The translations under genes were made by a program, and so were the position numbers. From Candidatus Multivoradales bacterium (GTDB lineage: Bacteria; Acidobacteriota; Thermoanaerobaculia; Multivoradales; JAHEKO01): a stretch of DNA of 64,000 bases. This document shows positions 4,966 to 52,362 of this stretch, one piece after another (position 1 is the stretch's first letter; each line of letters begins with the position of its first letter). The notes below the pieces were generated by a model, which saw only the letters and a program-made list of their open reading frames with translations, was not told the origin of the DNA and searched no databases. The stretch lies in assembly GCA_965248055.1 (NCBI GenBank), contig CBDFIJ010000004.1:2232777-2296776 (forward strand), given 5' to 3'.

Positions 4966-5463
4966 CAGCTTGGACCACGGAGGTTACGCCTTTATCAATT
5001 TCCACAACAATCGGGACCGATCCTGGATCTTCTGCCGCTTGCTATCCATGAAAATCAAAGCCTATTCATCCTGACTCACCGTTCGGGCCTTCGGTCTCCT
5101 GAAAAAAAACCTACTATGCCCTCTGCTGACTTCTGCGATGCGGTCAAAGCACCTCACGGTGCTCTCAGTCCCCTTTGCAAGAGACACATCGCAGACCTCC
5201 CGAGGTAAGTTCAAACCACCTTCACCGCACATACGCCGGATTTACAGCCCAGACGCTTGATCGGTATGGACTTTGTGACCTCTTGCTCACTCGTCCCACC
5301 TGGACTGCCTCGTATCCGATTCCCGTTCGTCGTGTCGCGGTTTTGCTCCACACTGCCTTCAGACCAGACCTCACGATCTCGCCCTTGTGCTTCGCTAGCA
5401 CTTCACCTCCATCTGGTTGTGCAGGGACTCGCACCCATAAGTTGTTGAACATGCTCGGCACAC

Positions 5464-19297: not shown

Positions 19298-19972
19298 ATG
19301 CCCACCAGTACTGTCGAGGACTACCTGAAACGCATCTTGTTGGAGGAAGCGAAACCCGGTGCGCTGGTTAAGTTTGGACCCATCGCCATCGGTCTCAATG
19401 TGGCACCAGGCACTGTGACCGCGATGATGAAGACCCTGGCCGACAGCGGACTGGTCAGCTATGAGCCTTACTCCGGCGTACGCCTTTCCTCTGCCGGCCG
19501 GCAGCTGGCGATGCACGTGCTCAGGCGCCATCGGCTGATCGAATTATTTCTGGTCGAAGTCCTCGGGTTGGACTGGACCGAAGTCCACGCCGAGGCCGAA
19601 GATCTCGAGCACGCGGTTTCCGATCGGATCGTCGAACGCATTGATGCTTTGCTGGGATTTCCCACCGTCGATCCACATGGAGATCCGATCCCTGACGCTC
19701 AGGGGCAGTTGTCTACAGATTCTGCACAAAACCTTACGGCGGTGCCAGAGGGAGGCGTGTTTCAAGTTGTGAGAGTTCTTGACCAGAGTCCAGGGTTCTT
19801 ACAATTAGTTGAGCTTGAGGGCCTTCGACCCGGCAGCCTACTCACGGTTGAGAGTCATGATGAGGCTTCCGACACAATGGTATTGCGCCGAGATAAAGGC
19901 GATTTGATCAGCCTGGGCTTGAGGGCGGCGAGCAAGCTTCTGGTCGAAGAAGCGGCGCTCAGGTTTGAATAG
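19298..19972 (+). CDS. DtxR/IdeR/MntR-family metal-dependent transcriptional repressor with a C-terminal FeoA/SH3-like domain.
   Basis: N-terminal HTH, metal-binding segment DPHGDPIP, C-terminal FeoA-like domain. Divergent from the MCO/ZIP genes across an AT-rich 110-bp intergenic region. Confidence 0.8.
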   Translation: MPTSTVEDYLKRILLEEAKPGALVKFGPIAIGLNVAPGTVTAMMKTLADSGLVSYEPYSGVRLSSAGRQLAMHVLRRHRLIELFLVEVLGLDWTEVHAEAEDLEHAVSDRIVERIDALLGFPTVDPHGDPIPDAQGQLSTDSAQNLTAVPEGGVFQVVRVLDQSPGFLQLVELEGLRPGSLLTVESHDEASDTMVLRRDKGDLISLGLRAASKLLVEEAALRFE

Positions 19973-20059
19973 ACTTAGGTCGTAATGGGCTCATGTCAGC
20001 TTGACACGGGGCTCTATTCGTTGTGTTTTCTCTTGCGACAGAAATGACTGAATAAAGAA

Positions 20060-20596
20060 ATGTCGAAGAAGTTGTCACCGAGCACTCAGCAATTCGTTCT
20101 TCATTGGGGGTCTATGGGGCCTCACTGGGGAGTCAATCGTAGCGTCGCACAAATCCACGCTTTGCTCTACCTGTCACCCGACCCCTTCACCGCTGAAGAG
20201 ATTTCCGGATTGCTGTCTATTGCAAGGTCAAATGTAAGCAATAGCCTAAAGGAACTCCAGTCTTGGCACATCGTACAAAAAGTCGCTGTGCTCGGAGATC
20301 GACGGGAGCACTTCAAGTCCGAGATTGATGTGTGGGAGATGTTTCAGACTGTTCTTGCTGAGAGGAAGAAACGAGAATTCGACCCGACATTGAAGTTGCT
20401 GCGGGAGATGCCGACAACGGGACACGACTCAGCGGAAACTAACTATACGCGGGAGCGTCTTGCAGAAATGCGTGAGTTCTTCGAGTCGACTTCAGCTTGG
20501 TATGTAGAGATCGGTCGCTTGTCGCCCAAATCTATGCGTCGGCTTGCCACTCTTGGGCGGAGGGTGCGCCAATTGGTTGATCCCGGAAGTCGTTGA
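20060..20596 (+). CDS. GbsR/MarR-type winged-helix transcriptional regulator.
   Basis: QIHALLYLSPDPFTAEEISGLLSIARSNVSNSLKELQSWHIV matches the GbsR-type HTH core. Confidence 0.55.
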   Translation: MSKKLSPSTQQFVLHWGSMGPHWGVNRSVAQIHALLYLSPDPFTAEEISGLLSIARSNVSNSLKELQSWHIVQKVAVLGDRREHFKSEIDVWEMFQTVLAERKKREFDPTLKLLREMPTTGHDSAETNYTRERLAEMREFFESTSAWYVEIGRLSPKSMRRLATLGRRVRQLVDPGSR

Positions 20597-20621
20597 GTTT
20601 TTTTGTACCTGTAGTTCTGTT

Positions 20622-22046
20622 ATGACAGAAATAAAAGAAACGAATGCACGTTCGCTTCTCTTCTACGATGACGAATGTTCTGTTTGTCGGAGCACGGTGA
20701 ACCGTTGGAAGTGGGTGCTGAGGAAGCGAGGTGTGGAGACGGTAGCGATGCAATCAAGCCGCGGCCGCCGTCATCTGGGCTTGGAGAAGGGAGTGGTTCC
20801 GGATGAGATGAAGCTTCGCCTGTCGAGTGGAAAGCTTGTGGGTGGCGGAGATGCTCTGATTCATTTGACGGGTCTCTTTTGGTGGGCGAAGCCCCTTCAC
20901 ACTCTTGCCAGCGTGTGCCCTTGCAGTGATCGCATTGCCAATGGAGCATATCGATGGGTGGCTGCTGGTAGGTATTGCGTGGCTGGAGCATGCAGGGTCA
21001 CGAGTAGTCCAAAGGATCACAACCAACCGAGCTGGCGCGAAATGATTTTAAGTAGCGTGGGGTATCTGCCATTGTTTATTGGCGCAGGCCTCGTGGCGTC
21101 TATCCGCAGCAAATTTTCGCCCTGGGTGTTCATGTGGGTTATCTCCTACACTCTCTTCGTCGGCTTCAAGTTCTTGACGCTTTGGCTGCAACGCGAGAAG
21201 TTGCAGGGTGTACCGTCTTGGCGAATCCTGGCGTATGTTTTCGCTTGGGTGGGGATGGATCCCAGGCCGTTTCTGGTGGGGCAGGGTCGCTCGACGCCAA
21301 GGGTGCCACATAGTGGTCTGGCGTCCAGCCTTTGCTCATTGATTGTAGGAGCCTTGATTCTTGTCTTTGCCGCATCAAACCCGGCCCATTTGCAAGATCA
21401 ATTGAGGGCGGGGCTCGGGCTCATAGGTTTGGCCTGCGTTCTTCACTTCGGACTTTTCAAATTAGTAGCGTGGTTTTGGTCCAATATGGGCATCGCGGTT
21501 GCTCCGGTCATGAATGCACCGCTGCAGGCGACCTCGGTCAACGATTTTTGGAGTCGTCGTTGGAACTTGGCGTTTAGAGACCTCGCGAGAGTTACGGTCT
21601 ACCGCCCGGTCTCACGCTTGGCAGGTGGGGCGGTAGCAATGCTGTTGGTTTTTCTAGTCTCAGGTTTTCTGCACGAAGTGGCCCTCTCGTTGCCTGCACG
21701 GGGTGGCTATGGTTTACCAACTCTCTACTTCTTACTGCAAGGGTGTGCGGCTCTCACTGAGCGTTACGTCCGGTCTCAGAGACCGTCCATGTCTCGGTTT
21801 GCCTACCGACTCTCGGCTCTGGCAACAGTGGTTCTTCCGATACCCCTGCTCTTTCACTCTGCGTTTCTCCGCACGGTCATCATTCCATTCTTGAATTCTC
21901 TACAGGAAGCCTTAACCATGAGAATTACCTACCCCCCCCCTTTGGGTTTTGATCGCAGTTGGAGGAATGGTGCAGATTGCGATAGCGGTCGCTTCGCTCA
22001 TGGTCCCGAAATGCCTACAGTGGCGCCGACGCTTGCTGGGAGTTGA
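20622..22046 (+). CDS. Fusion protein: an N-terminal DCC1-like thiol-disulfide oxidoreductase domain (DUF393) fused to a polytopic MBOAT-like (wax-synthase-type) membrane acyltransferase domain.
   Basis: The internal ATG at 20622 gives MTEIKE.. LLFYDDECSVCRSTVNRW, the D-x-x-C-x-x-C motif. Downstream are ~9 hydrophobic segments and FLVSGFLHEVA (conserved His of MBOAT-type enzymes). The ORF-track N-terminal extension was rejected. Confidence 0.55.
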   Translation: MTEIKETNARSLLFYDDECSVCRSTVNRWKWVLRKRGVETVAMQSSRGRRHLGLEKGVVPDEMKLRLSSGKLVGGGDALIHLTGLFWWAKPLHTLASVCPCSDRIANGAYRWVAAGRYCVAGACRVTSSPKDHNQPSWREMILSSVGYLPLFIGAGLVASIRSKFSPWVFMWVISYTLFVGFKFLTLWLQREKLQGVPSWRILAYVFAWVGMDPRPFLVGQGRSTPRVPHSGLASSLCSLIVGALILVFAASNPAHLQDQLRAGLGLIGLACVLHFGLFKLVAWFWSNMGIAVAPVMNAPLQATSVNDFWSRRWNLAFRDLARVTVYRPVSRLAGGAVAMLLVFLVSGFLHEVALSLPARGGYGLPTLYFLLQGCAALTERYVRSQRPSMSRFAYRLSALATVVLPIPLLFHSAFLRTVIIPFLNSLQEALTMRITYPPPLGFDRSWRNGADCDSGRFAHGPEMPTVAPTLAGS

Positions 22047-22194
22047 CCCAATCGTGCGACACCTTTTCTGGGTCTACGCTGGGTTTATCTTCCTATTATC
22101 CCCAGAAGCTGCCGCGTGATGTATACGTATCTTCTTTGTATCTCTTAGATATATCCGGCCAATCTGGCCGCTGAGATAGATAAACCTGTCCGCA

Positions 22195-22530
22195 TTACTG
22201 GGACAGGTTGTCCGTTCGTACAAAACGCGTAAATTGCTCTGTTGGTCGGAGGGATCGACTGCCTTCGATGAGCCCATGATCGCGCAGCTTGGCAAGTCCT
22301 CTGCGCACCGTTCGATCGGAGATTCCGAGCGCACGTCCGAGGTAGTCGCGAGACGCGAAACACCACCCCGTCTTTCTGGCGAGAACTTCGATCATCGCCA
22401 GAAGGGCGTACTCGTTGATCGTGAGGTTCAGCTTTTTGCGCGCATGCAAGTCGATTCGCACATATGGCGGATTGTTGGCCTTTTGGCCGGTGCGGCGATG
22501 GTTGTGCATGTGTGAGCCACCGTACGTCAG
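22195..22530 (-). CDS. Small winged-helix DNA-binding protein, phage/plasmid-like.
   Basis: LTINEYALLAMIEVLARKTGWCFASRDYLGRALGISDRTVRRGLAKLRDHGLIE is a typical HTH. It sits next to a recombinase pseudogene and an AT-rich patch. Start position is uncertain. Confidence 0.4.
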   Translation of the reverse strand: MTYGGSHMHNHRRTGQKANNPPYVRIDLHARKKLNLTINEYALLAMIEVLARKTGWCFASRDYLGRALGISDRTVRRGLAKLRDHGLIEGSRSLRPTEQFTRFVRTDNLSQ

Positions 22531-22837
22531 CATAAAGGGAGCGTCTAGTGAACGCTGGTCACGGGAGAACATCCGTTCACTCGATAGTGCAATGTCTCTT
22601 CGCCAAACTGGAGCAATGGAGTATGACTTTCCAGAAATCATGAGCCGCTGCTCTCATCTCTCCGAACAAGAACGCGAAGCAGCTCGCGAGCGCCTCAACC
22701 GTTACATCAGACTACTTGTCGACATCGCTCGTGATCCAGAATCACGCCGAAAGTTGGATCAATTGACGAGGACAAGATCGGCGCGTACCGTGAACTCACG
22801 GTCGAACCATTACAAGTCCTAACCAAACACCCGCACT

Positions 22838-23070
22838 ATGCAAAAGTGTTTTGGATACATCCGTGTATCCAGAAAACGCCAAGAAGAAGGTGTCTCGCTC
22901 AAAGAACAGCGAGCAGCCATCATCGCCTACGCTACGAAGCACGGCATCGTCATCATCCATAAGATTGACCGAAACGCCTGAAACCTCCATGACTGGGCCG
23001 ACCTTGCCGACCTCACCGAAGAGGGTGCACTTCCGTCGGGAACGGGCGGCGAATACCGCGCTTCTCTAGC
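22838..23070 (+). pseudogene. Serine recombinase (resolvase/invertase) N-terminal remnant, truncated after 44 codons and frameshifted.
   Basis: ATG at 22838 gives MQKCFGYIRVSRKRQEEGVSLKEQRAAIIAYATKHGIVIIHKIDRNA*. This contains the catalytic-serine motif YIRVS-x-x-Q and the AIIAYA..HG block of serine recombinases. The reading frame is lost after 22972. Confidence 0.65.
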
Positions 23071-23226
23071 GAACCCGCAAATATTACCATGCCCGAATCA
23101 GCTCGTCTAATGACAAGGTTGCTACGAGAATCGAACTTTTGTGGCTCTGCTGAGCTTGTTACTGTTCACACGTTGTGCGACGTTCTAAACACCGTTTTCT
23201 CGAACCACATAGCATTCAGAGAACCC

Positions 23227-23256
23227 AAAAGACCTCTCGGCTGAGAGGTTTTTTTT
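23227..23256 (+). terminator. Rho-independent terminator.
   Basis: gacctctc ggct gagaggt is followed by eight T residues. Confidence 0.7.
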
Positions 23257-23453
23257 GGGACGTTCTTCTGACGAACATTCCTTATTGTCTTGTGTACGAA
23301 CTCAGGACGTAGCTCGAACTTCGGACAATTCGTCCGATTTGGGCACGAAGAACATTCCGAGGTGGTGTGTCCCCATTATCGAGGCGCTCGTTCGCTTTGC
23401 CAAGGGATAGTACGACAGGTTACAGGACAATCCCCGCGACGTTCTTACGGGTT

Positions 23454-23990
23454 CTAGTCGGCGGCAAGGTTGATCTCTGTTCGATCCCCCTTTTCTTGGA
23501 CGGAGAACGATACCGACTCTCCAACTGCCAACTTTCTTAGCTCAAGCGTGTGTTCGGGCTGCTCTTGATCTTCAACAACCTCGATGGACAAGGGCTCCGA
23601 GGTAGCCGAGTCATCGTAGGCGTAAAGAGTGACCTTGCCAGCTTCGATACCTCTGACCTCGAATTCACCGGAAGCATCGGTCGTAGTCGATAGCTCGCGT
23701 CGGCGACGCCCATCACGTTGCTCCCGGATGGCCACAACAAATGCGTCCGCCGGAGCGTCGTTCTTCACAACGTGGCCCACAATACGTGTGTTCTGCAGTA
23801 CCACAGGAACCTTCGCATGGGTCGCTCCCATGGGACGTTCAATAATTTTGGTGCCGGCGGATTGTGTCCCGTTGCTGCCCATCAACTCAACTTCGATCGC
23901 CCATTCCCCTGCTTCAGGGAGATACCCCACGAAAACGACCGTTCTCGTCGGTGGGCACCCGAATCGACCGCACGCTGTTTCGACCCCCAA
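23454..23990 (-). CDS. Carboxypeptidase-regulatory-like domain protein, probably a fragment. Its 5' region abuts the IS5-like remnant.
   Basis: TDASGEFEVRGIEAGKVTLYAY motif typical of CarboxypepD_reg domains. No signal peptide. Confidence 0.3.
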   Translation of the reverse strand: MGVETACGRFGCPPTRTVVFVGYLPEAGEWAIEVELMGSNGTQSAGTKIIERPMGATHAKVPVVLQNTRIVGHVVKNDAPADAFVVAIREQRDGRRRRELSTTTDASGEFEVRGIEAGKVTLYAYDDSATSEPLSIEVVEDQEQPEHTLELRKLAVGESVSFSVQEKGDRTEINLAAD

Positions 23991-24085
23991 AAATGAGGAC
24001 GCCAGCTGTCCGGTCGTCCCCTAGGAGCTTGCTGAAAAACCCCACCACCGGACCATAACGATTCTATAATTGGGAATAGGAGGTT

Positions 24086-24576
24086 TTGATGCGTGGATCG
24101 GATCAAGGTCAGGGATCAATGTTCAGCTACGTTGACCTGGAACGGCGAATTCCTCGGTCTCATCCGTTGCGGCGGATCCGAAGTTTGATGGACGAAGCTC
24201 TTGGAGAGCTATCGGAGCGTTTTGAGACGATCTACGCTTCGAGTGGTCGTCCTTCGATTCCCCCCGAGCGTCTGCTCCGCGCATTGCTGCTTCAAGTGCT
24301 CTTCAGCGTGCGTAGTGAACGCCAGCTGATGGAGCAACTTGAGTACAACCTTCTATTTCGCTGGTTTGTCGGTCTTGGTATCGACGAGCGGGTGTGGGAC
24401 GCGACGACGTTTTGCAAGAACCGAGAGCGCTTGCTCGAAGGTTCGATCGCGGAAGAACTGTTTGCAGCGGTGCTGTCTCAAGCCGAGGACCGTGATCTGC
24501 TGTCACCGGATCACTTCAGCGTTGATGGCACACTGATCGAGGCTTGGGCTTCGCACAAGAGCTTTCGGCCAAAGGA
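24086..24576 (+). pseudogene. IS5/IS1182-family transposase N-terminal part, interrupted by the IS3-family insertion.
   Basis: MFSYVDLERRIPRSHPLRRIR...PPERLLRALLLQVLFSVRSERQLMEQLEYNLLFRWFVGL...SVDGTLIEAWAS is a DUF772/IS5-type N-terminal domain. The ORF-track continuation past 24577 is IS3 sequence read in a wrong frame. Confidence 0.7.
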
Positions 24577-24681
24577 CGAAGTCCTTTCTGCCAACATGAG
24601 TGAGACACTCCCCCGTTCAACAATTAATGTAGGGCGGACGGAGGTAAATCATGTTGAAGATAGATACAAATCGAAGTCTGG

Positions 24682-25080
24682 TTGGTTCGAGGGAGAGATC
24701 CCGTCGCGCTCGACCCGGAGACCCCTGAGAAGCCATATCGACGGCGTTTTAGCGCCGCGTACAAGCTCGGTATTCTGGAGCAGGTTGATGCCTGCACCGC
24801 AGCGGGTGAAGTAGGAAGGTTGCTGCGTCGCGAAGGGCTTTACTCCTCACATTTGACAAGCTGGCGCAAAGCGCGGCGCGAAGGCTCTCTGGCTGGACTT
24901 TCCAAGCGTCGCGGGCGCAAGGCAAAGCCGGTCAATCCCCTGGCCAAGAAAGTCCAGCAGCTTGAGCGTGAGAATGCGCACCTTAGCGGTGAGCTTGAGA
25001 AAGCTCACTTGATTCTATATGTCCAGGGAAAAGTTGCCGGGCTGCTGGGATTGAGCTTCGACGACGGGAAAAGTTCCTGA
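24682..25080 (+). CDS. IS3-family transposase OrfA (HTH plus leucine-zipper).
   Basis: RRRFSAAYKLGILEQVDACTAAGEVGRLLRREGLYSSHLTSWRKAR; coiled-coil LERENAHLSGELEKAHL. Confidence 0.85.
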   Translation: MVRGRDPVALDPETPEKPYRRRFSAAYKLGILEQVDACTAAGEVGRLLRREGLYSSHLTSWRKARREGSLAGLSKRRGRKAKPVNPLAKKVQQLERENAHLSGELEKAHLILYVQGKVAGLLGLSFDDGKSS

Positions 25081-26084
25081 TGGCCGCAGTAGAGCTATCG
25101 GGCACGGTCGGTGTGAAGCCGGCGTGCCAAGCTCTCGGGGTTGCACGGGCCACTTACTACCGTCGCCAGAAGCATTCCAATGGGCGAAAGCAGCCCCGAC
25201 CGACTCCCGCCCGAGCGCTATCGAGCTATGAACGCGACCGAGTACGCGGACTTCTATGCTCGCCACGATTCGCCGATCGAGCCCCCGCTGAGGTGGTTGC
25301 CACCTTGCTCGATGAAGGCACTTATCATTGCTCTGAACGCACGATGTATCGCATTCTGGCTGCCGACAAAGCAACCAAGGAGCGACGCAATCAATTGCGC
25401 CGTCCACGCTATGCCAAGCCGGAGCTGGTGGCCACAGAGCCCAATCAAGTTTGGTCCTGGGATATCACTAAACTCAAAGGCCCAAAGACTTGGACTTGGT
25501 ATTACCTCTACGTCTTACTCGATATCTTCAGCCGCTATGTGGTGGGCTGGATGGTGGCATCAAGAGAAAGCAGTGCCCTAGCCAAGCGATTGATTCAAGA
25601 CAGCTGTATCAAGCAGGGCACTGCCCCAGGAGAGCTCATCCTGCATAGTGACCGAGGATCACCAATGACCGCCAAAGGCACTGCCCAGCTCCTAGCTCAG
25701 CTCGGCGTCACTCGATCACTTTCCCGACCCAAGGTCCCGGACGACAATCCCTTTTCAGAAGCCCAGTTTAAGACCCTGAAATACCATCCGGGATTCCCCC
25801 GTCGTTTCGGCTCCATCGAAGACGCGCTCAGTTTTTGCCGACCTTTCTTTACTTGGTACAACACCGAGCATCGCCACAGCGGGCTCTCGATGATGACCCC
25901 GGAAGATGTCCACTACGGACGCACTGTGCAGGTCCTCGACCACAGAACCAGTGTTCTGGCTGATGTTTTTCTCAATAAACCCGAGCGCTTCGTACGCGGC
26001 TGCCCGAAGCCAAAACCATTACCCGACGCTGTCTGGATCAACCCACCAGATCGGGATCGATCATCGCTTGGCGATGCTCACTAA
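25080..26084 (+). CDS. IS3-family transposase OrfB (DDE integrase core).
   Basis: WSWDITKL...YLYVLLDIFSRYVVGW...HSDRGSPMTA...DNPFSEAQFKTLKYH...YNTEHRHSGL: rve-domain hallmarks. Confidence 0.85.
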   Translation: MAAVELSGTVGVKPACQALGVARATYYRRQKHSNGRKQPRPTPARALSSYERDRVRGLLCSPRFADRAPAEVVATLLDEGTYHCSERTMYRILAADKATKERRNQLRRPRYAKPELVATEPNQVWSWDITKLKGPKTWTWYYLYVLLDIFSRYVVGWMVASRESSALAKRLIQDSCIKQGTAPGELILHSDRGSPMTAKGTAQLLAQLGVTRSLSRPKVPDDNPFSEAQFKTLKYHPGFPRRFGSIEDALSFCRPFFTWYNTEHRHSGLSMMTPEDVHYGRTVQVLDHRTSVLADVFLNKPERFVRGCPKPKPLPDAVWINPPDRDRSSLGDAH

Positions 26085-26124
26085 TTAAAGATGACGTGTG
26101 TCTCATTATCGTTGGCAGGTTCCG

Positions 26125-26424
26125 ATCAGCCAGGTCTACAACTACGTAAGAAAGATCAGGGCGACCAAAGCCAAAGACCGGAAAGGGCGGCCAGTCACGC
26201 TTGGGCCAGATTTGCCTTTCTATGCGTACATACTTGCCGACATCACTCCTTCGCTTGAGACACAAGCGGAGAACGCGAACTTCATTCGTTCGCCGGACAG
26301 CATGGGATATTTTGGTTACAATTCGCGCCTCCGAACCTACGTTGAGATTATGAGTTTCAAGAAGGTCGTTGTCGATGCAAAGAAACGAAATACGGCCTTT
26401 TTTCGACGGTTAGGAATTTCGTAG
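26125..26424 (+). pseudogene. Probable downstream remnant of the interrupted IS5-like transposase.
   Basis: Resumes right after the IS3 right end. Weak similarity to the IS5 transposase middle region (KDRKG..., FYAY, GYFGYNSRL). Confidence 0.3.
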
Positions 26425-26457
26425 AGTTAGCCGAGAGAAGAGGTTCGGATGTCTGCA

Positions 26458-26612
26458 CCATGGCACACTTGAACTCAAGAAATGACGGACCTCGCCAACA
26501 CCTGGCAACAAAGACATTGGTCGCAAGTCACTGATTTTGTTGTGGTTATCTCTTGTGTTCGATTGAGGTCTATTGGCTCGAACCAATCTTCAAAACCGTT
26601 GTCCCGTTCCGG
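26458..26612 (+). repeat. Copy A of a ~155-bp direct repeat, partner at 29637-29790.
   Basis: ~70% identity. Shared blocks catggcaca, ttga(a)ctcaagaaa, gccaaca, ttgtggtta, caatcttcaaaacc. Confidence 0.7.
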
Positions 26613-26839
26613 ATCGGCTCGGGGGGTTGGTTCGATTCCCATGCGCTTCCGCCATTTAAGTTATTGGAATTACAACATCTCGCGGCTGTCGCGTCCGAGG
26701 CGCAAGGTGTGAAAGTAATTTCGTTGCGCTTGCTTTTCCGGGTTTGGAGATCAAGGTGGCGAGTAGATCCGGTTGGCCCTCGGGGGATTTTGCCAGGCTA
26801 GTGTGATAAAATTTGGTCCCGTTAGGATAGAGGTTTCCA

Positions 26840-29080
26840 ATGCTTGTTTCCAAGCGCCTTGTCTGCAGTTCGTTGGCTCTTATTCTCACCGCGTTAGCCG
26901 CTAGCGTCGTTGCGTTCGCAGATGAGATCAAGACTGAACATGCTCTTTGGGTTGGTGGAGACCCAGAGGCCGTTGTGACAGTGATTTTTGGGGAATCTAC
27001 TGCTGGAGATCCTGGTTGGATTTTCGAAGGGAAAAGGTCGCAACTTGGTGCGCAACGGAGCAGATGGACTGGGCGGCCCGCGACGTGTCCACAAGCGTAC
27101 TTCTGCAGCTACGTAGACGATGGCACTCAGGGCCGACTCGTCGTTGATGATGCAAAGGCTCTCGAGCTAGTTCTGCAGCCTCCGACGGACGAAAACCCTA
27201 GAGAGGGAGGCGTGTTGGTGGAGGCTCTGCTCAACAATATTCAGGGAAGAAGTGCGTTCGTGCGGGTGCATGAGTTTAAAATTGGCGAACCGACCGCAGA
27301 GTTTTCGTTCCCTGCTACTTCGGAGGTTCTTAGGGTCTCAGCTGAGGGGTTTGCGCCCACTTACCAAGTGCTCGTTGAGCACGAAGCGGCTACAAGCCGG
27401 CTGACAATTCCACTCCGGCGAGCTGGCACGGTTTCAGGGTGGGTGATTGATTCCAGCGAAGAGTCTCCATGGAGTGTCGTGGCAGTACCAGAGGGAGATC
27501 CGGTCGGTTCTGTTGAGACCGCACCTGCTTTGGCTACAGCCACTCAGGACGGTGGGTTTTTCTCAATACACGGACTCGCTGCTGGTATCCACAAGCTGGT
27601 ATTGCAGCACTTTGAAAAAAGAGTTCATGTAGTAGTCGGAACGGTCCGGGTGACGGAAGGCGAAGAGGTCAATGTCGGTCTTGTCGAGACACCAGTTCCT
27701 ATTGAGCATGTCGTCTTTGCATTTACCTCCGAAGAAAGTGTTGGGAGTCCCAAGGATTGGGAAATCCAGATTGTCTCGTTAGGGCAAAGTAAGCTAACCA
27801 TGTCGTCGCGCTTTGATGAACTGGGACAAGCTTCACTCGATGACGTATACCCCGGTACCTACAACTATTATCTACGTTTACCTCACGGCAATACCTTTCA
27901 ATCAGGTTCTATTGAGATTGATGAGGGTCGCGCCTTTCATTCCATTGATCTGCGTGTAGCGAAAGTGTTTGGAGTCGTCACAAACGCGGGAGGAGATCCT
28001 GCCACTGCAGAGCTACGTGTAGGAAACGGCTCAGGACCACTGATTTCCACTCAAACTGATGCTAGTGGCTACTACGAAGTTCTTATTCCGTATCCAGATC
28101 GCCGACTAGTTGTAGCCCAAGTGACACCGACGCTTGGCGACAACATGTTCTGGGAGTCGATCTCTGATGTCGATGTCGAAGCAGACGGCATCACAGTCAA
28201 TCTTGAGATTCCTTCGTTTGCACTCGATGTGGTGGTCGTCGACAGTTCTGGTTTGCCAGTAGCAAATAGCCAGGTTATAGCGAAAGACAAAGGGGGGCTG
28301 GGTGTACTGGCGGAAACCAACCAAGAAGGGGGTGCGCGGGTGCGTCACCTTCGCGAGGGTGAGTATTCGGTTCGGGCTCGCACAGATGAGGCGCAATCAA
28401 ACGTGGTACAAGTGACCGTATCTAAGACGAGCCCATCTTCGCCCATCCGTCTTACGCTGAGAACTGACGACACCATTAGTGTACTGCTTAGCGACGCGTT
28501 TGGAACTCCCCTACGAGCAGCCGTCGTATTCGCTTCGTTTGACGGGATACCGGTGTCAAAACGCGTCAGTTCCGGGATGGATGGATGGGTGAAGATCCCT
28601 GCGCCTGCTTCCGCAAGTAGCGTAAGCTTGGTTGTCCTTTCCGCCAGATCCGGAGCTATTGCGACGAGCTGTGTGTCGGTAGATCGAAACGGCGACGGTT
28701 CACTTACTTTCCCGTCTGGGGGCACAGGCACCATAGTGTTTGCGCCCCCCAGTGATGCCGCATCTGCTGAATTGTATGTTGCCCAGCTACTTATGACGGG
28801 ACTCACGACACCTCAAGGTGGATTCCTGTCGTTGCAGCATTTCGACGAGTGGGCTCGCATAACCGGGCAAGCATTTGACATTCGAAGCTTGTTGCAGGGT
28901 GGGCGCCGTCTGTCAATTCACGGGGTCGCAGAGGGATTGTACGCGCGAAGTCATAGTCATCATGGATGCATTGCAGCACCTGCTGAACCCTGGGGTGCAG
29001 TAGGCAACGGCCAAGAGTTGGTAATTCGGGCGACGCCGCAAGAGGAGGCGGGCCTGACAAAGAAAGGAGATCCAGTATGA
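26840..29080 (+). CDS. Large secreted protein made of multiple carboxypeptidase-regulatory-like / Ig-like beta-sandwich domains.
   Basis: Signal peptide MLVSKRLVCSSLALILTALAASVVAFA. Repeated ~80-aa beta-rich units, e.g. TDASGYYEVLIPYP. No sorting signal at the C-terminus. Its stop overlaps the next start (GTATGAG). Confidence 0.65.
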   Translation: MLVSKRLVCSSLALILTALAASVVAFADEIKTEHALWVGGDPEAVVTVIFGESTAGDPGWIFEGKRSQLGAQRSRWTGRPATCPQAYFCSYVDDGTQGRLVVDDAKALELVLQPPTDENPREGGVLVEALLNNIQGRSAFVRVHEFKIGEPTAEFSFPATSEVLRVSAEGFAPTYQVLVEHEAATSRLTIPLRRAGTVSGWVIDSSEESPWSVVAVPEGDPVGSVETAPALATATQDGGFFSIHGLAAGIHKLVLQHFEKRVHVVVGTVRVTEGEEVNVGLVETPVPIEHVVFAFTSEESVGSPKDWEIQIVSLGQSKLTMSSRFDELGQASLDDVYPGTYNYYLRLPHGNTFQSGSIEIDEGRAFHSIDLRVAKVFGVVTNAGGDPATAELRVGNGSGPLISTQTDASGYYEVLIPYPDRRLVVAQVTPTLGDNMFWESISDVDVEADGITVNLEIPSFALDVVVVDSSGLPVANSQVIAKDKGGLGVLAETNQEGGARVRHLREGEYSVRARTDEAQSNVVQVTVSKTSPSSPIRLTLRTDDTISVLLSDAFGTPLRAAVVFASFDGIPVSKRVSSGMDGWVKIPAPASASSVSLVVLSARSGAIATSCVSVDRNGDGSLTFPSGGTGTIVFAPPSDAASAELYVAQLLMTGLTTPQGGFLSLQHFDEWARITGQAFDIRSLLQGGRRLSIHGVAEGLYARSHSHHGCIAAPAEPWGAVGNGQELVIRATPQEEAGLTKKGDPV

Positions 29081-29442
29081 GAAGGACGTTATTATTAGGC
29101 TTCGTAGTTGGGTTCGTTGTGATTCTCGGCGCACCGAACTCGCCCGTGGAGGCTACTTGCTTCAATTGTGAGCCGACGACAATTTGTTCGTGGGGATATG
29201 AATGCGTGACAGCCAGCGGCCCGGGAGCGGAGGGCGACCTTTGCGAGCAGACGATTATTTTTATTAACAATAGCTCATATTGCCTCTGCCGTTTTCTCGG
29301 TTGGTGCGACGACCAATGGGCAAACGGCGAGGCTGGAACTTCCTGCGCGGCAGCTGCTGAAACCCAACCTATTGACGCCTGCAGTATTGAGGGGGGAGTA
29401 GGTTTCGCTGCCTGCGAATCGAATAGCCAGATGGTCACCTAA
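29077..29442 (+). CDS. Small Cys-rich secreted protein: 121 aa, 11 Cys in the ~95-aa mature part.
   Basis: Signal peptide MRRTLLLGFVVGFVVILGAPNSPVEA, then TCFNCEPTTICSWGYECV...LCEQ...YCLCRFLGWC... Translationally coupled to the 746-aa gene. Confidence 0.55.
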   Translation: MRRTLLLGFVVGFVVILGAPNSPVEATCFNCEPTTICSWGYECVTASGPGAEGDLCEQTIIFINNSSYCLCRFLGWCDDQWANGEAGTSCAAAAETQPIDACSIEGGVGFAACESNSQMVT

Positions 29443-29636
29443 CCAGCCCTGACTCGCCCAGTTGAACGCTGGGATTCTAGGCTGTCTTACTTGCAGTTCG
29501 GCACTGAATGATCGGGACGGTTGGCCGCCGATGAGTAGTGTCAGGTGAGCGTGGAAGTTGTGCAGGATAGAGAATCGTCTGCTGAAAACGTGGGCGAGAA
29601 CTTCCGCGCGGGAACGGGGTCGCTTCAGTGGCACAC

Positions 29637-29790
29637 TCATGGCACAGTTGACTCAAGAAACGACGATTCATGCCAACACTTGCCAACAACGTTGATGTGG
29701 GCAAGTAGTTGATGTAATTGTGGTTACGAGTTGACGTTTGTTGGGATCTGTTGGTTCCGAGCAATCTTCAAAACCGCTGCCAGTCAACCT
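29637..29790 (+). repeat. Copy B of the ~155-bp direct repeat, immediately upstream of the sorting-signal mini-ORF and sortase gene.
   Basis: See copy A. Contains a TTGACT -35-like hexamer. Confidence 0.7.
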
Positions 29791-29953
29791 TTCGGCTGGC
29801 TGGGATCACACTAAAGTCTTCGGTTCGTTGCCGCTCACCGCGACTCCTTTCGCGGCTCTGATCTTGAGCGGAATCTTATGCCTGATCTTGGCTGCGTTGG
29901 CTCACTCTCGAGTCCGTTTCCAGGTGGTGCGCGCACGAAGCGGAAAGCGATGA
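29738..29953 (+). CDS. 71-codon mini-ORF (TTG start) encoding little more than a sortase sorting signal: LPLTA motif, a TM segment, then an Arg-rich tail.
   Basis: ...KVFGSLPLTATPFAALILSGILCLILAALAHSRVRFQVVRARSGKR*. Its stop TGA overlaps the ATG of the sortase gene (GCGATGA). No N-terminal signal peptide. Confidence 0.45.
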   Translation: MLGSVGSEQSSKPLPVNLSAGWDHTKVFGSLPLTATPFAALILSGILCLILAALAHSRVRFQVVRARSGKR

Positions 29954-30425
29954 TCCGGATCGGTCTTCTGGTGGTTGGGCTGGGTTACTTGGCCCATGGC
30001 TTCTGGTTGTCACTGAAGGCTGAAGTGGCTCAGGTGCTGCTGGATCGAGCGTGGCAACAGACGATTCAGGGAACCCATCAAACGCCTCCCTGGCCGTGGG
30101 CCGATACCTGGCCGGTCGCGCGGATTAAGGTACCCAGACTGAAGATTGATCAGGTAGTGCTGGCCATGTGGCGCTTACGGGACATCGCGATACTCATTTC
30201 CGTTTCCTCCAATATCTTCGTCCGGGAGAGGCCCTGAGCTTGCAGTCGATCGACGGTACCTGGAAACACTACGTCGTTGAGAGGTCCCAGGTGGTCGATC
30301 AAGAAGCAGTCGAAGTCTTGGCGCCAACGGACATTCCAACCTTGACCCTGGTGACCTGCTACCCGTTTGATCGGTTGGCGGTCGGTGGGCGTCAGCGATT
30401 CATCGTTCGGGCGGTCGGCGAGTGA
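29950..30425 (+). pseudogene. Class-GN-like (marine proteobacterial type) sortase gene interrupted by a frameshift near 30150-30170.
   Basis: N-terminal TM MIRIGLLVVGLGYLAHGFWL and ...RIKVPRLKIDQVVLA are in frame 0 (which stops at 30237). The catalytic part ALTGHRDTHFRFL...LTLVTCYPFD...RQRFIVRAV (His and Cys motifs of sortases) is in another frame from 30168. Confidence 0.7.
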
Positions 30426-30593: not shown

Positions 30594-31166
30594 ATGATGA
30601 TGGCTACGACCGTTTACATGGCCTGTGCCGCGATTGGTGGAGCGGTGTTGATCATCCAGATGTTTTTACTTCTGATCGGCGGCGATATCGACGCTGACAT
30701 GGACATGGACATGGACATGGATATTGACGACGCCGATGCTGGGGATGGGTCTTTTAGTCTGTTGTCGATCCGTGCGGTTACCGGATTTTTGACGTTTTTC
30801 GGATTGGTCGGCTGGTGGGGATCGGTCGAAGGCTGGGGACAAACTAAGACTCTGTTGGCAGCCTTGGGATCCGGCTTGGTGATGATGGTCGCTATTGCCT
30901 GGTTGTTCTCGCTACAGCGGCGCCTTCACTCGGAGGGCAACGTGGACTTTCGCAACGTGGTTGGACTGACCGGAAAAGTCTATCTGCGGATTCCAGGACA
31001 CAAGACAGGAAACGGCAAGATCACGGTCGCGATTCAAGGCCGGTCGATGGAATTTCTGGCGCTTACCAGTGGGGAGGAGATTCCCACAGGTAGCGATATC
31101 CGCGTGGTTGCGATGACCACCGAAGGGACCTATGAAGTTGAGCCACTAGATGGCCACGGAGGATGA
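30594..31166 (+). CDS. NfeD-family membrane protein (YuaF-like, with a C-terminal OB-fold).
   Basis: N-terminal TM helices, C-terminal beta-rich GKVYLRIPGHKTGNGKITVAIQG. Directly upstream of, and overlapping, the flotillin gene. Confidence 0.7.
   Translation: MMMATTVYMACAAIGGAVLIIQMFLLLIGGDIDADMDMDMDMDIDDADAGDGSFSLLSIRAVTGFLTFFGLVGWWGSVEGWGQTKTLLAALGSGLVMMVAIAWLFSLQRRLHSEGNVDFRNVVGLTGKVYLRIPGHKTGNGKITVAIQGRSMEFLALTSGEEIPTGSDIRVVAMTTEGTYEVEPLDGHGG
30696..30719 (+). repeat. (GACATG)x4 hexanucleotide tandem repeat inside the NfeD gene, encoding DMDMDMDM.
   Basis: Seen directly in the sequence. Embedded in an acidic DIDADMDMDMDMDIDDADAGDG segment. Confidence 0.9.
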
Positions 31167-32830
31167 TTCTGATGTTGAGCACTCTGATATTGAACGCAAT
31201 GAGCTTGTCCGCAATCTCGCTGTTGGGCGGCATATTTCCGCTATTGATTGTCTTAGCGGCGCTGCTGATCGTCGCAGGTTTTGTGATGGCAATCGCACGG
31301 CGCTATCGAAGGTGTCCCAGTAACCGCATCTTAGTGGTCTATGGACGCACCAGCGCCGGACAGTCGGCGAAATGTGTCCACGGTGGCGGAACCTTTGTCT
31401 GGCCGTTGATTCAGTCCTTCGACTTTTTGGACTTGGACCCGATTCAAATCGAAATCCCCCTAGAAGGGGCGTTGTCGATGGAAAACATCCGGGTGTCGGT
31501 ACCCAGTGTGTTTACCGTTGCGATTGGCACCGACACAGTGACCATGAATAACGCCGCCATTCGCCTGCTTGGTTTGCAAACTCAAGAGATCATGAAACAG
31601 GCGGAAGACATCATTTTTGGTCAGCTTCGGCAGGTGATCGCTTCGATGAAGATTACCGAGATCAATCGCGACCGTGACGTTTTTCTGGAGAAGGTGCAGC
31701 AATCGCTGGAGCCGGAACTGGCGAAGATCGGTTTGGTGTTGATCAACGTCAACATCAAGGACATCACCGACGCTTCGGGTTACATCGAAGCGATTGGTCG
31801 CAAGGCAGCGTCGGAAGCGGTCGAGCAAGCCAAAATCGACGTTTCTGAACAAGAAAAGAGAGGCTCGATTGGTGTCGCGGAAGCCAACCGCGAGCAGGAG
31901 GTCGAAGTCGCCAACGCCGAGAAGTTTCGGGATATCGGCACTAAGGAAGCCGAACGCGAGCGAGCGGTACGCCTGGCTGATCTCGACAAAGAGAAAATTG
32001 TTGGAGAGCAGGCTGCGGCTTTCGAACGGGATGCGCAGGTCAAGGACTCTGAACGGGAAATGCGGGTACAGGTTGCCAGCGCAAACGCCAAAGCGGTCGC
32101 TGGTGAGAACTTAGCCAAGGCAGAGATCGCCACTGTCAACGCCGACCTCAAAGTTAAGGAAGCGGACGCGATGCAGCGCGGTGAGACCCGACGCCGAGAG
32201 GCTGAGGCGGCGGTTCGTGAGGCTCAGTATCGAGCCGAGGCTAAGGCTGCAGTTGCCGAGGCTGAAAAGGTTGAGGCCGAGAAGCGCGCCGAGTTGGAGT
32301 CGCTCGCTCGGGCGGTGAAAGCGCAACAGGTGGTGCAGGCAGAAGCCGACGCTGAGCAACAGCGAATTCGCGCGGAAGGTGAGGCGGCTGCGATCTTCGC
32401 GCGGCTGGACGCCCAAGCCAGGGGTGAATTTGAAGTCTTGGCAAAGAAGGGCCTCGGTATGCGGGAGATTATCGAGAGCTGTGGTGGCTCGAAAGAGGCG
32501 TTCCAGATGTTGATGTTGGAACACATCGACCACATTTCGGAGACCGCCGCGAGCGCAATCGCCAATATTAAGTTCGACAAAGTTGTGGTGTGGGACGGGG
32601 GTCAAGGAAATAGTGAGAACTCTGGGACCGCCGGGTTCGTGCGTAGCCTGGCTAGCGCACTGCCTCCCGCCCTGCAGTTGATGAGAGATATCGGTGGTGT
32701 CGATATGCCCGAATACTTCGGGAAGATTTTGGCGGACGAGCAAGCAACGCCCAGTGGAAAAGACGAAGCTGTCGATTCCGAGGCTAACTCTGTCGAAGAC
32801 GGTTGCGCGGAGACAGAAGAACCGGAGTAA
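31163..32830 (+). CDS. Flotillin-like SPFH/Band-7 protein (FloT/YuaG-type).
   Basis: N-terminal TM, SPFH domain, long Ala/Glu-rich coiled coil (EAEKRAELESLARAVKAQQ...). 555 aa. Confidence 0.8.
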   Translation: MILMLSTLILNAMSLSAISLLGGIFPLLIVLAALLIVAGFVMAIARRYRRCPSNRILVVYGRTSAGQSAKCVHGGGTFVWPLIQSFDFLDLDPIQIEIPLEGALSMENIRVSVPSVFTVAIGTDTVTMNNAAIRLLGLQTQEIMKQAEDIIFGQLRQVIASMKITEINRDRDVFLEKVQQSLEPELAKIGLVLINVNIKDITDASGYIEAIGRKAASEAVEQAKIDVSEQEKRGSIGVAEANREQEVEVANAEKFRDIGTKEAERERAVRLADLDKEKIVGEQAAAFERDAQVKDSEREMRVQVASANAKAVAGENLAKAEIATVNADLKVKEADAMQRGETRRREAEAAVREAQYRAEAKAAVAEAEKVEAEKRAELESLARAVKAQQVVQAEADAEQQRIRAEGEAAAIFARLDAQARGEFEVLAKKGLGMREIIESCGGSKEAFQMLMLEHIDHISETAASAIANIKFDKVVVWDGGQGNSENSGTAGFVRSLASALPPALQLMRDIGGVDMPEYFGKILADEQATPSGKDEAVDSEANSVEDGCAETEEPE

Positions 32831-51348: not shown

Positions 51349-52362
51349 TTAGTGAATCGGGACAACCTCCTTGGTGCGCTGATGTTTGGGTGGGTTGATC
51401 CAGACGGCCCTCGGTAATAGCTGAACGGTCGGTCTTCCACGGACAAATCGCTGTGGGTTGTTTCGCCAAGCTTGGTCAAGGGCCAGTTGACGGATCTTGA
51501 GCTTGTGGTCGGCCTTGCCGCAGTGGACATCTTCGGGTGTCAGCATGGCGATGCCGGCGTGCCGGTGCTGGGTGTTGTACCAGCGGAAAAACGAGCGGCA
51601 GAAGGCGATCGCGTCCTCGATTGAGCCGAACCGATCCGGAAAGCTCGGGTGATACTTGAGGGTCTTGAATTGTGCTTCGGAGAAGGGGTTATCGTTGGAG
51701 ATGCGAGGCCGCGAGAACGACTGAGAGATACCAAGCCGTACGAGGAGTCGTCCGGTGTCCTTGGCGGTCATCGGCGAGCCCCGATCACTGTGTAGGGTTA
51801 GCTGATTCTTGGGAATGCCTTGCTTGGTTGAGGTCTCCTCGAGAAGCCTTTGGGCTAAGGCCTCGCGTTCGTGCTCGGCGAGCATCCAGCCGACCACATA
51901 GCGGCTGAAGATATCGAGGACAACGTAGAGATAGAACCACCATCCCGGCTGCGGACCTCGCAGCCGGGTGATATCCCAGCTCCAGACTTGGTTTGCCGCT
52001 GTGGCGAGTAGCTCTGGCTTGGTATAGACCGGATGGCGGCGTTGGCGCCGTCTCTCCTGCAGCGTCTTCTCAGCTGCCAGGAGTCGGTACATGGTGCGCT
52101 CCGAGCACAGATAGCGTTCTTCGTCGAGAAGGGTGGCCACCACGGCCGCCGGTGCAGCGTCGACAAAGCGCGGCCCGTTGAGTAGGTCAAGGACCTGTTG
52201 TTTTTCGCTGACTGTCAGTGCCCGAGCTGGAGTCGGTCGAGGCTGCTGAGGCTCGGTTGATCTCGGCCGAAGCCGACGATAGAACGTTGCACGACTGACG
52301 CTCAGGCTCCGGCAGGCCGGTGCGATACCGACCCACGGAGCCAGCGTCCTGGCCGCTTTCAC
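51349..52362 (-). CDS. IS3-family transposase OrfB (DDE).
   Basis: WSWDITRL...YLYVVLDIFSRYVVGWM...HSDRGSPMTA...DNPFSEAQFKTLKYHP. Related to, but diverged from, the 25080-26084 OrfB. Confidence 0.85.
   Translation of the reverse strand: MKAARTLAPWVGIAPACRSLSVSRATFYRRLRPRSTEPQQPRPTPARALTVSEKQQVLDLLNGPRFVDAAPAAVVATLLDEERYLCSERTMYRLLAAEKTLQERRRQRRHPVYTKPELLATAANQVWSWDITRLRGPQPGWWFYLYVVLDIFSRYVVGWMLAEHEREALAQRLLEETSTKQGIPKNQLTLHSDRGSPMTAKDTGRLLVRLGISQSFSRPRISNDNPFSEAQFKTLKYHPSFPDRFGSIEDAIAFCRSFFRWYNTQHRHAGIAMLTPEDVHCGKADHKLKIRQLALDQAWRNNPQRFVRGRPTVQLLPRAVWINPPKHQRTKEVVPIH

What the first reader, a model, noticed from the sequence alone, without database searches (positions are those of the whole stretch)
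29738..30425. Mini-ORF encoding a bare sortase sorting signal, overlapping the start of a class-GN-like sortase
A 71-codon TTG-initiated ORF ends ...FGSLPLTATPFAALILSGILCLILAALAHSRVRFQVVRARSGKR. That is the full tripartite topology of a sortase substrate C-terminus (LPxTA-like motif, TM helix, basic tail). It has no signal peptide and no passenger domain. Its stop overlaps the sortase ATG (GCGATGA). Marine proteobacterial (GN) sortases are normally paired with one dedicated large target protein (reported to carry VIT/vWA domains). Here the cognate target seems to be absent or reduced to its sorting signal, while the nearby large secreted proteins lack such a signal. This could be a decayed target gene, or an unusual arrangement.
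Basis: partly seen in the sequence, partly recalled or inferred. Interest (0 to 1): 0.75.

Follow-up and report, generated by a model that had tools for sequence, protein, structure and literature searches.

The report
Dead sortase and target-gene stub
The mini-ORF is the leftover 3' end of a large surface-protein gene that lost its first ~1.9 kb, and the sortase next to it is also broken, so this is an ordinary decayed two-gene cassette and not a new kind of sortase substrate.

Summary
The 71-codon ORF (29738-29953), its LPLTAT / membrane helix / basic tail ending and the GCGATGA stop/start overlap are all real. The ORF is not a gene.

A profile of 120 full-length VIT/vWA sortase-target proteins hits the whole window's six-frame translation once, on this ORF. 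It matches only the last ~50 profile positions (E 4e-10). A tail-only profile gives 57.6 bits, against at most 10.4 for 1000 shuffles.

In the closest relative found (a Candidatus Multivoradales MAG, Planctomycetota), gene order is the same on both sides. There a 740-aa VIT/vWA target sits exactly here and overlaps its sortase by 4 nt. In the window, about 9.8 kb of unrelated, IS-ridden DNA fills the space between the DtxR-like gene and the stub.

The sortase is also dead. Its two halves lie in different frames, and about 24 conserved codons are missing, consistent with a 73-nt deletion between 13-nt direct repeats.

The first ~12 codons of the mini-ORF, including the TTG "start", come from a 145-nt repeat that also occurs at 26459-26601. 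They are not target-gene sequence.

Verdict: relic of a known class GN sortase / dedicated-target cassette. Low interest. One loose end is that the repeat at the junction weakly resembles tRNA-Sec.

The parts
29738..29953 (+). Mini-ORF as listed mechanically (71 codons plus stop). It is a chimera of repeat-B sequence (first ~12 codons) and the target-gene 3' remnant.
29756..29953 (+). Surviving 3' end of a VIT/vWA 'marine proteobacterial sortase target' gene (TIGR03788 family). It matches profile positions 630-680 of 686.
   Evidence: Profile of 120 targets against the six-frame window gives a single hit, E 4.1e-10. Reading through upstream stops adds nothing. Tail-only profile: 57.6 bits, E 4e-17. 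Weak TIGR03788 C-terminal hit.
29828..29845 (+). Sorting motif LPLTAT (LPxTAT type).
   Evidence: LPxTAT/MPxTAT occurs in 42 of 120 family tails; the others have LPxGGT or LPxGAT.
29849..29905 (+). Hydrophobic membrane-spanning stretch FAALILSGILCLILAALAH of the sorting signal.
   Evidence: Read from the sequence. Aligned to the hydrophobic columns of the family profile.
29906..29950 (+). Basic tail SRVRFQVVRARSGKR. Its end overlaps the sortase ATG (gcgATGA).
   Evidence: The same 4-nt overlap occurs in L001, L082 and L084.
29950..30165 (+). Sortase pseudogene, 5' part: membrane anchor and the PWPWADTWPVA block. Its frame runs on to a stop at 30235-30237.
   Evidence: TIGR03784 positions 1-68, 75 bits. 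tblastn with the L001 sortase, residues 5-75. Alignment A1.
30153..30165 (+). Deletion junction. The 13 nt GGTAGTGCTGGCC read as VVLA in the upstream frame and GSAGH in the downstream frame, and both readings fit the family consensus.
   Evidence: The 73-nt deletion between direct repeats is an inference.
30150..30425 (+). Sortase pseudogene, 3' part, in a frame shifted by +2. It holds catalytic His (30183-30185), Cys of TLVTC (30357-30359) and Arg (30396-30398).
   Evidence: TIGR03784 positions 95-174, 93.2 bits, and Pfam Sortase 2.7e-19. Alignment A1.
29638..29779 (+). Repeat B, copy 2. It abuts the target stub and supplies the TTG and the first ~12 codons of the mini-ORF.
   Evidence: blastn against 26459-26601: 72% identity, E 6e-13. 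Alignment A2. Weak tRNA-Sec likeness, 16.2 bits.
26459..26655 (+). Repeat B, copy 1, followed by a degenerate tRNA-Sec-like 3' part (T loop GGTTCGATTCC, ...CTTCCGCCA).
   Evidence: RF01852 scores 21.4 bits against a gathering score of 47. No tRNA by ARAGORN. It is not a second target tail.
19973..29755 (.). About 9.8 kb segment that occupies the place of the target gene's 5' ~1.9 kb. It holds a MarR-like gene, a DCC1/MBOAT gene, an HTH_36 gene, a CarboxypepD_reg fragment, an IS5-type transposase gene split by an IS3 element, a 746-aa CarboxypepD_reg protein and a 121-aa Cys-rich protein. None has a counterpart in the related locus.
24589..26118 (+). IS3-family insertion sequence (orfA 24682-25080, orfB 25080-26084) with terminal inverted repeats. 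It is inserted into the DUF772/IS5-type transposase gene that starts at 24086.
19298..19972 (+). DtxR-like iron-dependent repressor gene. It is the left synteny anchor; in the relative the target gene starts 136 nt after it.
30594..32830 (+). NfeD-like (190 aa) and flotillin/Band 7 (555 aa) genes. They are the right synteny anchor and are intact.

Best explanation
The locus is the wreck of a two-gene class GN sortase cassette, in which a VIT/vWA surface protein carrying an LPxTAT sorting signal is followed by its dedicated sortase.

In the lineage of this planctomycete the cassette sat between a DtxR-like regulator gene and an NfeD/flotillin pair. One or more rearrangements then removed the intergenic region and about 630 codons of the target gene. 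About 9.8 kb of unrelated DNA, rich in insertion sequences, now lies there. Only the last ~55-60 codons of the target survive: a short conserved pre-motif stretch (PVNLSAGWDHTKVFGS), LPLTAT, the membrane helix and the basic tail. The 4-nt overlap with the sortase start is still in place.

The open frame is closed upstream by a TGA. The 'TTG start' lies in foreign repeat sequence. The mini-ORF therefore has no signal peptide, no passenger domain and no evolved start.

Separately, the sortase lost about 24 conserved codons plus one base, most simply by slippage between two 13-nt direct repeats. The membrane-anchor half and the catalytic half are now in different frames.

Neither gene can work: a tail without export cannot reach a sortase, and there is no intact sortase in this locus.

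Shown: the homology, the synteny, the truncation, the frameshift and missing segment, and the repeat at the junction. Inferred: the order and mechanism of the events, and the lack of expression.
For: 1. Whole-window six-frame search with a profile of 120 target homologs gives one hit, the mini-ORF frame. It matches profile positions 630-680 of 686, E 4.1e-10. Reading through upstream stops in all three frames gives no extension.
2. The tail-only profile gives 57.6 bits, against at most 10.4 for 1000 shuffles.
3. The closest locus, L001/L002 (Candidatus Multivoradales MAG), has the order TPR, FG-GAP, p398, Cu-oxidase, DtxR, 740-aa VIT/vWA target, sortase (4-nt overlap), NfeD-like, Band 7... aminotransferase. 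The window has the same order with 56-85% amino-acid identity, except that nothing matches target residues 1-~680.
4. Three further GN sortase loci all have a 676-708-aa VIT/vWA gene directly upstream and overlapping the sortase.
5. The sortase halves match TIGR03784 positions 1-68 and 95-174 in different frames. Alignment with 10 homologs shows the block IVLAGxxGxxLAFGPGHLxxSAxP missing, including six columns that are at least 90% conserved.
6. The ORF called in the deposited assembly (P0010, 119 aa) is identical to the truncated frame.
7. Repeat B ends where target homology begins.
8. IS3 and IS5-type elements lie inside the replaced segment.
9. No independent small protein resembling the mini-ORF exists in 5.8 billion proteins.
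Against: - No closer relative than L001 is available (sortase about 58% identical), so the deletion end points cannot be fixed at nucleotide level. DNA similarity is too low.
- Neither sortase half nor the stub carries internal stops, so the decay is recent. Residual expression of fragments cannot be excluded from sequence alone.
- The lesions rest on one assembly. Reads were not available to rule out an assembly fault.
- An intact second sortase elsewhere in the genome, outside the window, cannot be excluded.
Confidence: 0.9

Rival explanations
1. The mini-ORF is a real small gene. A membrane-inserted 'bare sorting signal' peptide would be made from the TTG and act on or be processed by a sortase, for example as a regulator or a minimal substrate.
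For: The frame is open for 72 codons. The tripartite signal is intact and the stop/start overlap with the sortase gene is preserved.
Against: - The adjacent sortase is frameshifted and lacks a conserved block.
- The start region is repeat-derived and preceded by an in-frame stop two codons upstream.
- No promoter-like site was found nearby.
- No homologous stand-alone small protein exists in the large protein collection.
- All four intact loci examined have a 676-740-aa target instead.
- Sorting-signal proteins need an N-terminal signal peptide (PMC3237569), and this ORF has none.
Confidence: 0.03
2. The lesions are assembly or sequencing artefacts. The real genome would carry an intact target and sortase, and the contig would be mis-joined or collapsed in this IS-rich region.
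For: - The region holds several IS copies and a 145-nt repeat that could mislead an assembler.
- The source appears to be a multi-megabase contig of a metagenome-type assembly.
- Frameshifts are common errors in long-read assemblies (general knowledge).
Against: - The sortase lesion removes about 24 conserved codons, not one base.
- The junction with the target stub is not at an IS end. It lies at a 72%-identical repeat, which is too diverged to cause a collapse.
- The 9.8-kb segment contains long intact ORFs (500 and 746 aa) and looks like real genomic sequence.
Confidence: 0.05
3. The sortase is still functional as a split or recoded enzyme, through programmed frameshifting or two separately translated halves, and acts on a substrate encoded elsewhere.
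For: Both halves are free of internal stops. The catalytic His, Cys and Arg are all retained in the 3' half, which has a GTG at 30168.
Against: - The missing block contains six columns that are at least 90% conserved across the family.
- The catalytic half alone has no membrane anchor or signal peptide.
- No slippery-site evidence was found.
- The combined score is reached only by adding two frames, and each half is below the TIGR03784 cut-off.
Confidence: 0.02

Closest known systems
Class GN ('marine proteobacterial type') sortase, NCBIfam TIGR03784, with its dedicated adjacent target TIGR03788 (VIT + vWA protein with an LPxTG-type tail). [quoted passage not shown]
   Same: - Both sortase halves have TIGR03784 as best family.
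- The stub matches the C-terminus of the target family, including the pre-motif PVNLxAGW...VFGxLPxTAT.
- The order is target then sortase, with overlapping stop and start, as in intact loci.
- The literature describes this as a dedicated one-target system encoded by adjacent genes (PMC3237569; bioRxiv 10.1101/2023.05.05.539549).
   Different: - Both genes are broken here: there is no VIT domain, no vWA domain and no signal peptide, and the sortase is frameshifted with a conserved block missing.
- The host is a planctomycete, not a proteobacterium.
- Neither this locus nor its intact relative L001 has the OmpA-family PdsO gene or the two-component system seen next to many proteobacterial, L082/L083 and L084 cassettes.
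Intact syntenic cassette in Candidatus Multivoradales MAG CBDCXF010000002.1 (loci L001/L002).
   Same: - Flanking genes are the same on both sides, at 56-85% amino-acid identity.
- The sortase is 58% identical over both halves.
- The 4-nt overlap is the same.
- The tail is of LPxTAT type (LPRTAT versus LPLTAT).
   Different: - The relative has the full 740-aa target and a 203-aa uninterrupted sortase.
- It has an extra 283-aa gene after the sortase.
- The window instead has about 9.8 kb of unrelated DNA with IS elements.
IS-associated gene decay (pseudogene remnants next to insertion sequences).
   Same: IS3- and IS5-type elements lie within the replaced segment. Further IS copies and a group II intron occur elsewhere in the window.
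   Different: Neither deletion end point coincides with an IS terminus, so an IS is not shown to have caused the truncation. The right junction is at repeat B instead.

Membership tests
Class GN sortase (TIGR03784) | Sequence matches the family model above its curated cut-off (158.25 bits) as one protein. | tested here: not met
   The two pieces score 75.0 bits (model 1-68) and 93.2 bits (model 95-174) in different reading frames. Model positions 69-94 are absent.
Class GN sortase (TIGR03784) | Catalytic His, Cys (TLxTC) and Arg of the sortase fold. | tested here: met
   GHRDTHF, TLVTC and R(F/Y)(I/V)V align with invariant columns of 10 homologs. Pfam Sortase 2.7e-19.
Class GN sortase (TIGR03784) | Uninterrupted ORF joining the N-terminal membrane anchor to the catalytic domain. 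| tested here: not met
   The frame from ATG 29950 stops at 30237. The catalytic part is in the +2 frame. About 24 conserved codons are missing.
Class GN sortase (TIGR03784) | A dedicated target gene with VIT and vWA domains lies adjacent. | tested here: not met
   Only the C-terminal ~55 codons remain. There is no VIT or vWA match anywhere in the window.
Marine proteobacterial sortase target protein (TIGR03788) | VIT and vWA domains, with a full-length match above the cut-off (551.65 bits). | tested here: not met
   12.2 bits, model positions 578-621 of 629 only. The profile of 120 homologs matches only positions 630-680 of 686.
Marine proteobacterial sortase target protein (TIGR03788) | C-terminal sorting signal: LPxTA/LPxGG-type motif, membrane helix and basic tail. 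| tested here: met
   LPLTAT plus helix plus basic tail. Tail profile 57.6 bits, E 4e-17. Motif census of 120 tails.
Marine proteobacterial sortase target protein (TIGR03788) | N-terminal signal peptide for export. | tested here: not met
   The ORF begins MLGSVGSEQSSKPLP..., right after an in-frame stop, and has no hydrophobic N-terminal segment.
Marine proteobacterial sortase target protein (TIGR03788) | Lies directly upstream of the sortase gene and overlaps it. | tested here: met
   ATGA overlap at 29950-29953, the same as in L001, L082 and L084.
tRNA-Sec (Rfam RF01852), considered for repeat B and its flank | Covariance-model score at or above the gathering score (47 bits), with intact acceptor, D, anticodon and T arms. 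| tested here: not met
   21.4 bits (26564-26650) and 16.2 bits (29732-29819), each with several broken pairs. Neither region is reported in the whole-window gathering-threshold search. ARAGORN finds no tRNA.

The most novel reading that the evidence does not exclude
The truncation may not be random decay. It could be the scar of a site-specific event. Repeat B carries a tRNA-Sec-like piece, and its homology stops at about the anticodon arm, exactly where the target stub begins. Its two copies bracket the 746-aa and 121-aa gene pair. This could mean that an element using a selC-like attachment site recombined into the target gene and swapped the VIT/vWA surface protein for another secreted-protein cassette. 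The stub could then be transcribed from the incoming DNA.
Probability: 0.05. Interest if true: 0.35.

Novelty: new member of a known kind. Interest (0 to 1): 0.1.

Why it matters
It matters little for biology. It shows that a planctomycete lineage once carried the 'Gram-negative' dedicated sortase cassette and that this genome has recently lost it, in a region full of insertion sequences.

Its practical value is as a caution. A perfect tripartite sorting signal can survive as a short open frame after its gene is truncated, and a neighbouring 'sortase' should be checked for frame continuity before any pairing is proposed. For annotation, both features should be marked as pseudogenes.

Tried and rejected
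1. A search of 5.8 billion proteins with the 72-aa frame found no hit with E <= 0.1. There is no family of stand-alone mini-proteins.
2. tblastn of the relative's 740-aa target against the window found no remnant of the first ~680 residues. A profile search of all six frames with filters off, and of stop-read-through translations, also found none.
3. The exact-sequence look-up of the window's 119-aa ORF returned nothing on record, so the source contig could not be retrieved.
4. Of 80 Planctomycetota NfeD/flotillin loci, only L001/L002 has the sortase cassette next to it. Synteny is confined to the closest relative.
5. A metagenome scan with the NfeD-like protein found no relatives.
6. DNA-level comparison with L001 is too diverged to place the break points.
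7. I tested whether repeat-B copy 1 is a second decayed target tail. It is not.
8. I tested the tRNA-Sec reading of repeat B. Scores are far below threshold, a two-sequence alignment has no power, and the fold z-score is -1.36. This stays unexplained.
9. I looked for counterparts of the genes in the 9.8-kb segment in 81 related loci and found none.
10. The promoter/terminator scan around the ORF was uninformative.
11. Literature on GN sortases is sparse. Two of three searches returned nothing relevant, apart from one taxonomic description that merely contains the term.

Full report
**Observation**

The ORF exists as described. It runs from TTG at 29738 to TGA at 29951-29953 and has 71 codons. 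It ends ...FGSLPLTATPFAALILSGILCLILAALAHSRVRFQVVRARSGKR, and its stop overlaps an ATG at 29950 (gcgATGA). LPLTAT lies at 29828-29845. A ~19-residue hydrophobic stretch and a tail with five basic residues follow it.

The frame is closed two codons upstream of the TTG by a TGA at 29732-29734. The 'start' is therefore just the first permitted codon after a stop.

A scan of every stop-to-stop frame in the 64 kb for a motif, hydrophobic stretch and basic-tail C-terminus finds only this one.

**The neighbouring sortase is broken**

- The frame opened by the ATG ends at 30237 (119-aa ORF).
- The part with the catalytic residues is in another frame (85-aa ORF, 30168-30425).
- The first piece matches class GN sortase TIGR03784 at model positions 1-68 (75 bits). 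The second matches positions 95-174 (93.2 bits). Each is below the 158-bit cut-off. Pfam Sortase matches only the second piece.
- Aligned with ten homologs, the window sequence lacks the block IVLAGxxGxxLAFGPGHLxxSAxP, which contains six columns that are at least 90% conserved.

The three-frame translation shows that the 13 nt GGTAGTGCTGGCC (30153-30165) read as VVLA in the upstream frame and GSAGH in the downstream frame. Both readings fit the consensus on either side of the missing block. The simplest origin is a 73-nt deletion (24 codons plus 1 nt) between two 13-nt direct repeats. This is an inference.

The protein collection holds a 119-aa product identical to the truncated frame, on a 3.35-Mb contig (P0010). 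The deposited assembly therefore carries the same lesion.

**What the mini-ORF is**

A search with the 72-aa frame found no related stand-alone protein.

The closest intact sortase (P0002, 48% identity in the BLASTP table; ~58% over each half by tblastn) lies in a Candidatus Multivoradales (Planctomycetota) MAG. Its locus L001 reads: TPR, FG-GAP, 398-aa protein, multicopper oxidase, DtxR-like regulator, 740-aa VIT/vWA protein, sortase (4-nt overlap), 283-aa protein, 181-aa protein, Band 7... aminotransferase.

tblastn of these proteins against the window finds all of them in the same order and orientation, at 56-85% identity:
- DtxR-like gene at 19298-19945
- sortase in two frames at 29947-30153 and 30153-30413
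- 181-aa homolog at 30600-31154
- Band 7 at 31187-32800

Two proteins are exceptions. The 283-aa protein is absent, and the VIT/vWA protein gives no significant hit.

I then collected 120 homologs of that VIT/vWA protein. Several are named 'marine proteobacterial sortase target protein' by their sources. I built a profile from them.
- Against the six-frame translation of the entire window, with filters off, the profile gives exactly one hit: the mini-ORF frame, profile positions 630-680 of 686, E 4.1e-10.
- Reading through stops in all three frames upstream to 28900 adds nothing.
- A profile of the last 62 residues of the 120 proteins scores the mini-ORF at 57.6 bits (E 4e-17). The best of 1000 shuffles reaches 10.4 bits.

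The match covers more than the sorting signal. It includes the conserved pre-motif stretch: window KPLPVNLSAGWDHTKVFGSLPLTATP against, for example, P0124 RPLPVNLPAGWSHEKVFGALPSTATP. LPxTAT or MPxTAT occurs in 42 of the 120 tails, and the others carry LPxGGT or LPxGAT.

Three more GN sortase loci from other phyla all have a 676-708-aa VIT/vWA gene directly upstream of the sortase and overlapping it.

The mini-ORF is therefore the 3' stub of the cognate target gene. About 630 codons are gone.

**What replaced the missing part**

Between the DtxR-like gene (ends 19972) and the stub lie about 9.8 kb with no counterpart in L001 or in 80 other planctomycete loci:
- a MarR-like gene
- a DCC1/MBOAT fusion
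- an HTH_36 protein gene
- a CarboxypepD_reg fragment
- an IS5/DUF772-type transposase gene, cut at about 24588 by an IS3-family element (24589-26118, with inverted repeats)
- the 746-aa CarboxypepD_reg protein gene
- the 121-aa Cys-rich protein gene

Copy 2 ends where the target homology begins. The right break point therefore lies at about 29756-29780. The TTG and the first ~12 codons of the mini-ORF are repeat sequence, not target sequence.

DNA similarity to L001 is too low to place the break points more precisely.

**Mechanism and function**

Literature and family descriptions agree on the system. It is a dedicated Gram-negative sortase (TIGR03784) encoded next to its single VIT/vWA target, and sorting-signal proteins always carry an N-terminal signal peptide (PMC3237569). 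In Shewanella oneidensis the cassette is SO2194-SO2196 and its role is still unknown (bioRxiv 10.1101/2023.05.05.539549).

Here the stub has no signal peptide and no passenger domain. The sortase lacks a conserved block, and its anchor and catalytic halves are out of frame. The cassette is non-functional.

Neither remnant has internal stops, so the loss is probably recent.

**Rivals**

- A real small gene is unlikely. It has a repeat-derived start, no homologs as a stand-alone ORF and a dead partner enzyme, and intact loci always carry the long gene.
- An assembly artefact cannot be excluded without reads. However, the sortase lesion removes 24 codons, not one base, and the junction repeat is only 72% identical to its other copy.
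- A split or recoded functional sortase is unlikely, because the missing block is conserved throughout the family.

**Loose end**

The last ~45 nt of repeat B, plus the sequence that follows copy 1 (26564-26650), resemble tRNA-Sec. The features are a CUUCAAA loop, a variable-arm hairpin, GGUUCGAUUCC and a ...CUUCCGCCA end. The score is 21.4 bits against a gathering score of 47.

Copy 2 scores 16.2 bits and loses the resemblance where the target stub starts.

ARAGORN finds no tRNA, and the whole-window gathering-threshold search reports neither region. Copy 1 is not a second target tail. Folding and a two-sequence alignment are uninformative.

Whether this marks a site-specific recombination at a selC-like site is undecided. 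No integrase gene was seen in the segment.

**Verdict**

This is a decayed copy of a known system. The 'unusual arrangement' reading is not supported, and the 'decayed target gene' reading is supported and extends to the sortase itself.

Noticed in passing
window 26459-26655 and 29638-29819: A 145-nt repeat (72% identity) whose 3' end, together with the flank of copy 1, looks like a degenerate tRNA-Sec: CUUCAAA loop, GGTTCGATTCC and a ...CTTCCGCCA end. Rfam scores are 21.4 and 16.2 bits against a gathering score of 47. The two copies bracket the 746-aa and 121-aa gene pair, and copy 2 forms the junction with the target stub.
   Followed up: partly
window 24086-26118: Nested insertion sequences. 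An IS3-family element (about 24589-26118, inverted repeats CTGCCAAC...GAGACAC) sits inside a DUF772/IS5-type transposase gene. No continuation of that gene was recognised after the IS3 element.
   Followed up: partly
window 1-146 and 1710-4574 (-): The 3' end of the same IS3 element recurs at the window start (98% identity to 25980-26124). A 955-aa ORF on the minus strand begins with an rve_3 transposase fragment fused in frame to PKD and Ig domains, which suggests another IS-disrupted or IS-fused gene.
   Followed up: no
window 5086-5380 (-): Group II intron RNA domains: RF02001 at 126 bits and RF01998 at 59.6 bits, both above their gathering scores. No reverse-transcriptase ORF was checked.
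   Followed up: no
window 51352-52696 (-): A third, diverged IS3-family transposase. Its orfB is 61% identical to the one at 25080-26084.
   Followed up: no
window 23454-23990 (-) and 26840-29080 (+): Two CarboxypepD_reg-domain ORFs (178 aa and 746 aa) lie inside the replaced segment. The short one looks like a fragment. The 746-aa gene overlaps a 121-aa Cys-rich secreted-looking ORF by 4 nt. Neither has homologs in the 81 related loci.
   Followed up: partly
L001 10771-11622 (-): The intact relative has a 283-aa gene without Pfam hits between the sortase and the NfeD-like gene. It is absent from the window, where only 170 nt separate the two.
   Followed up: no
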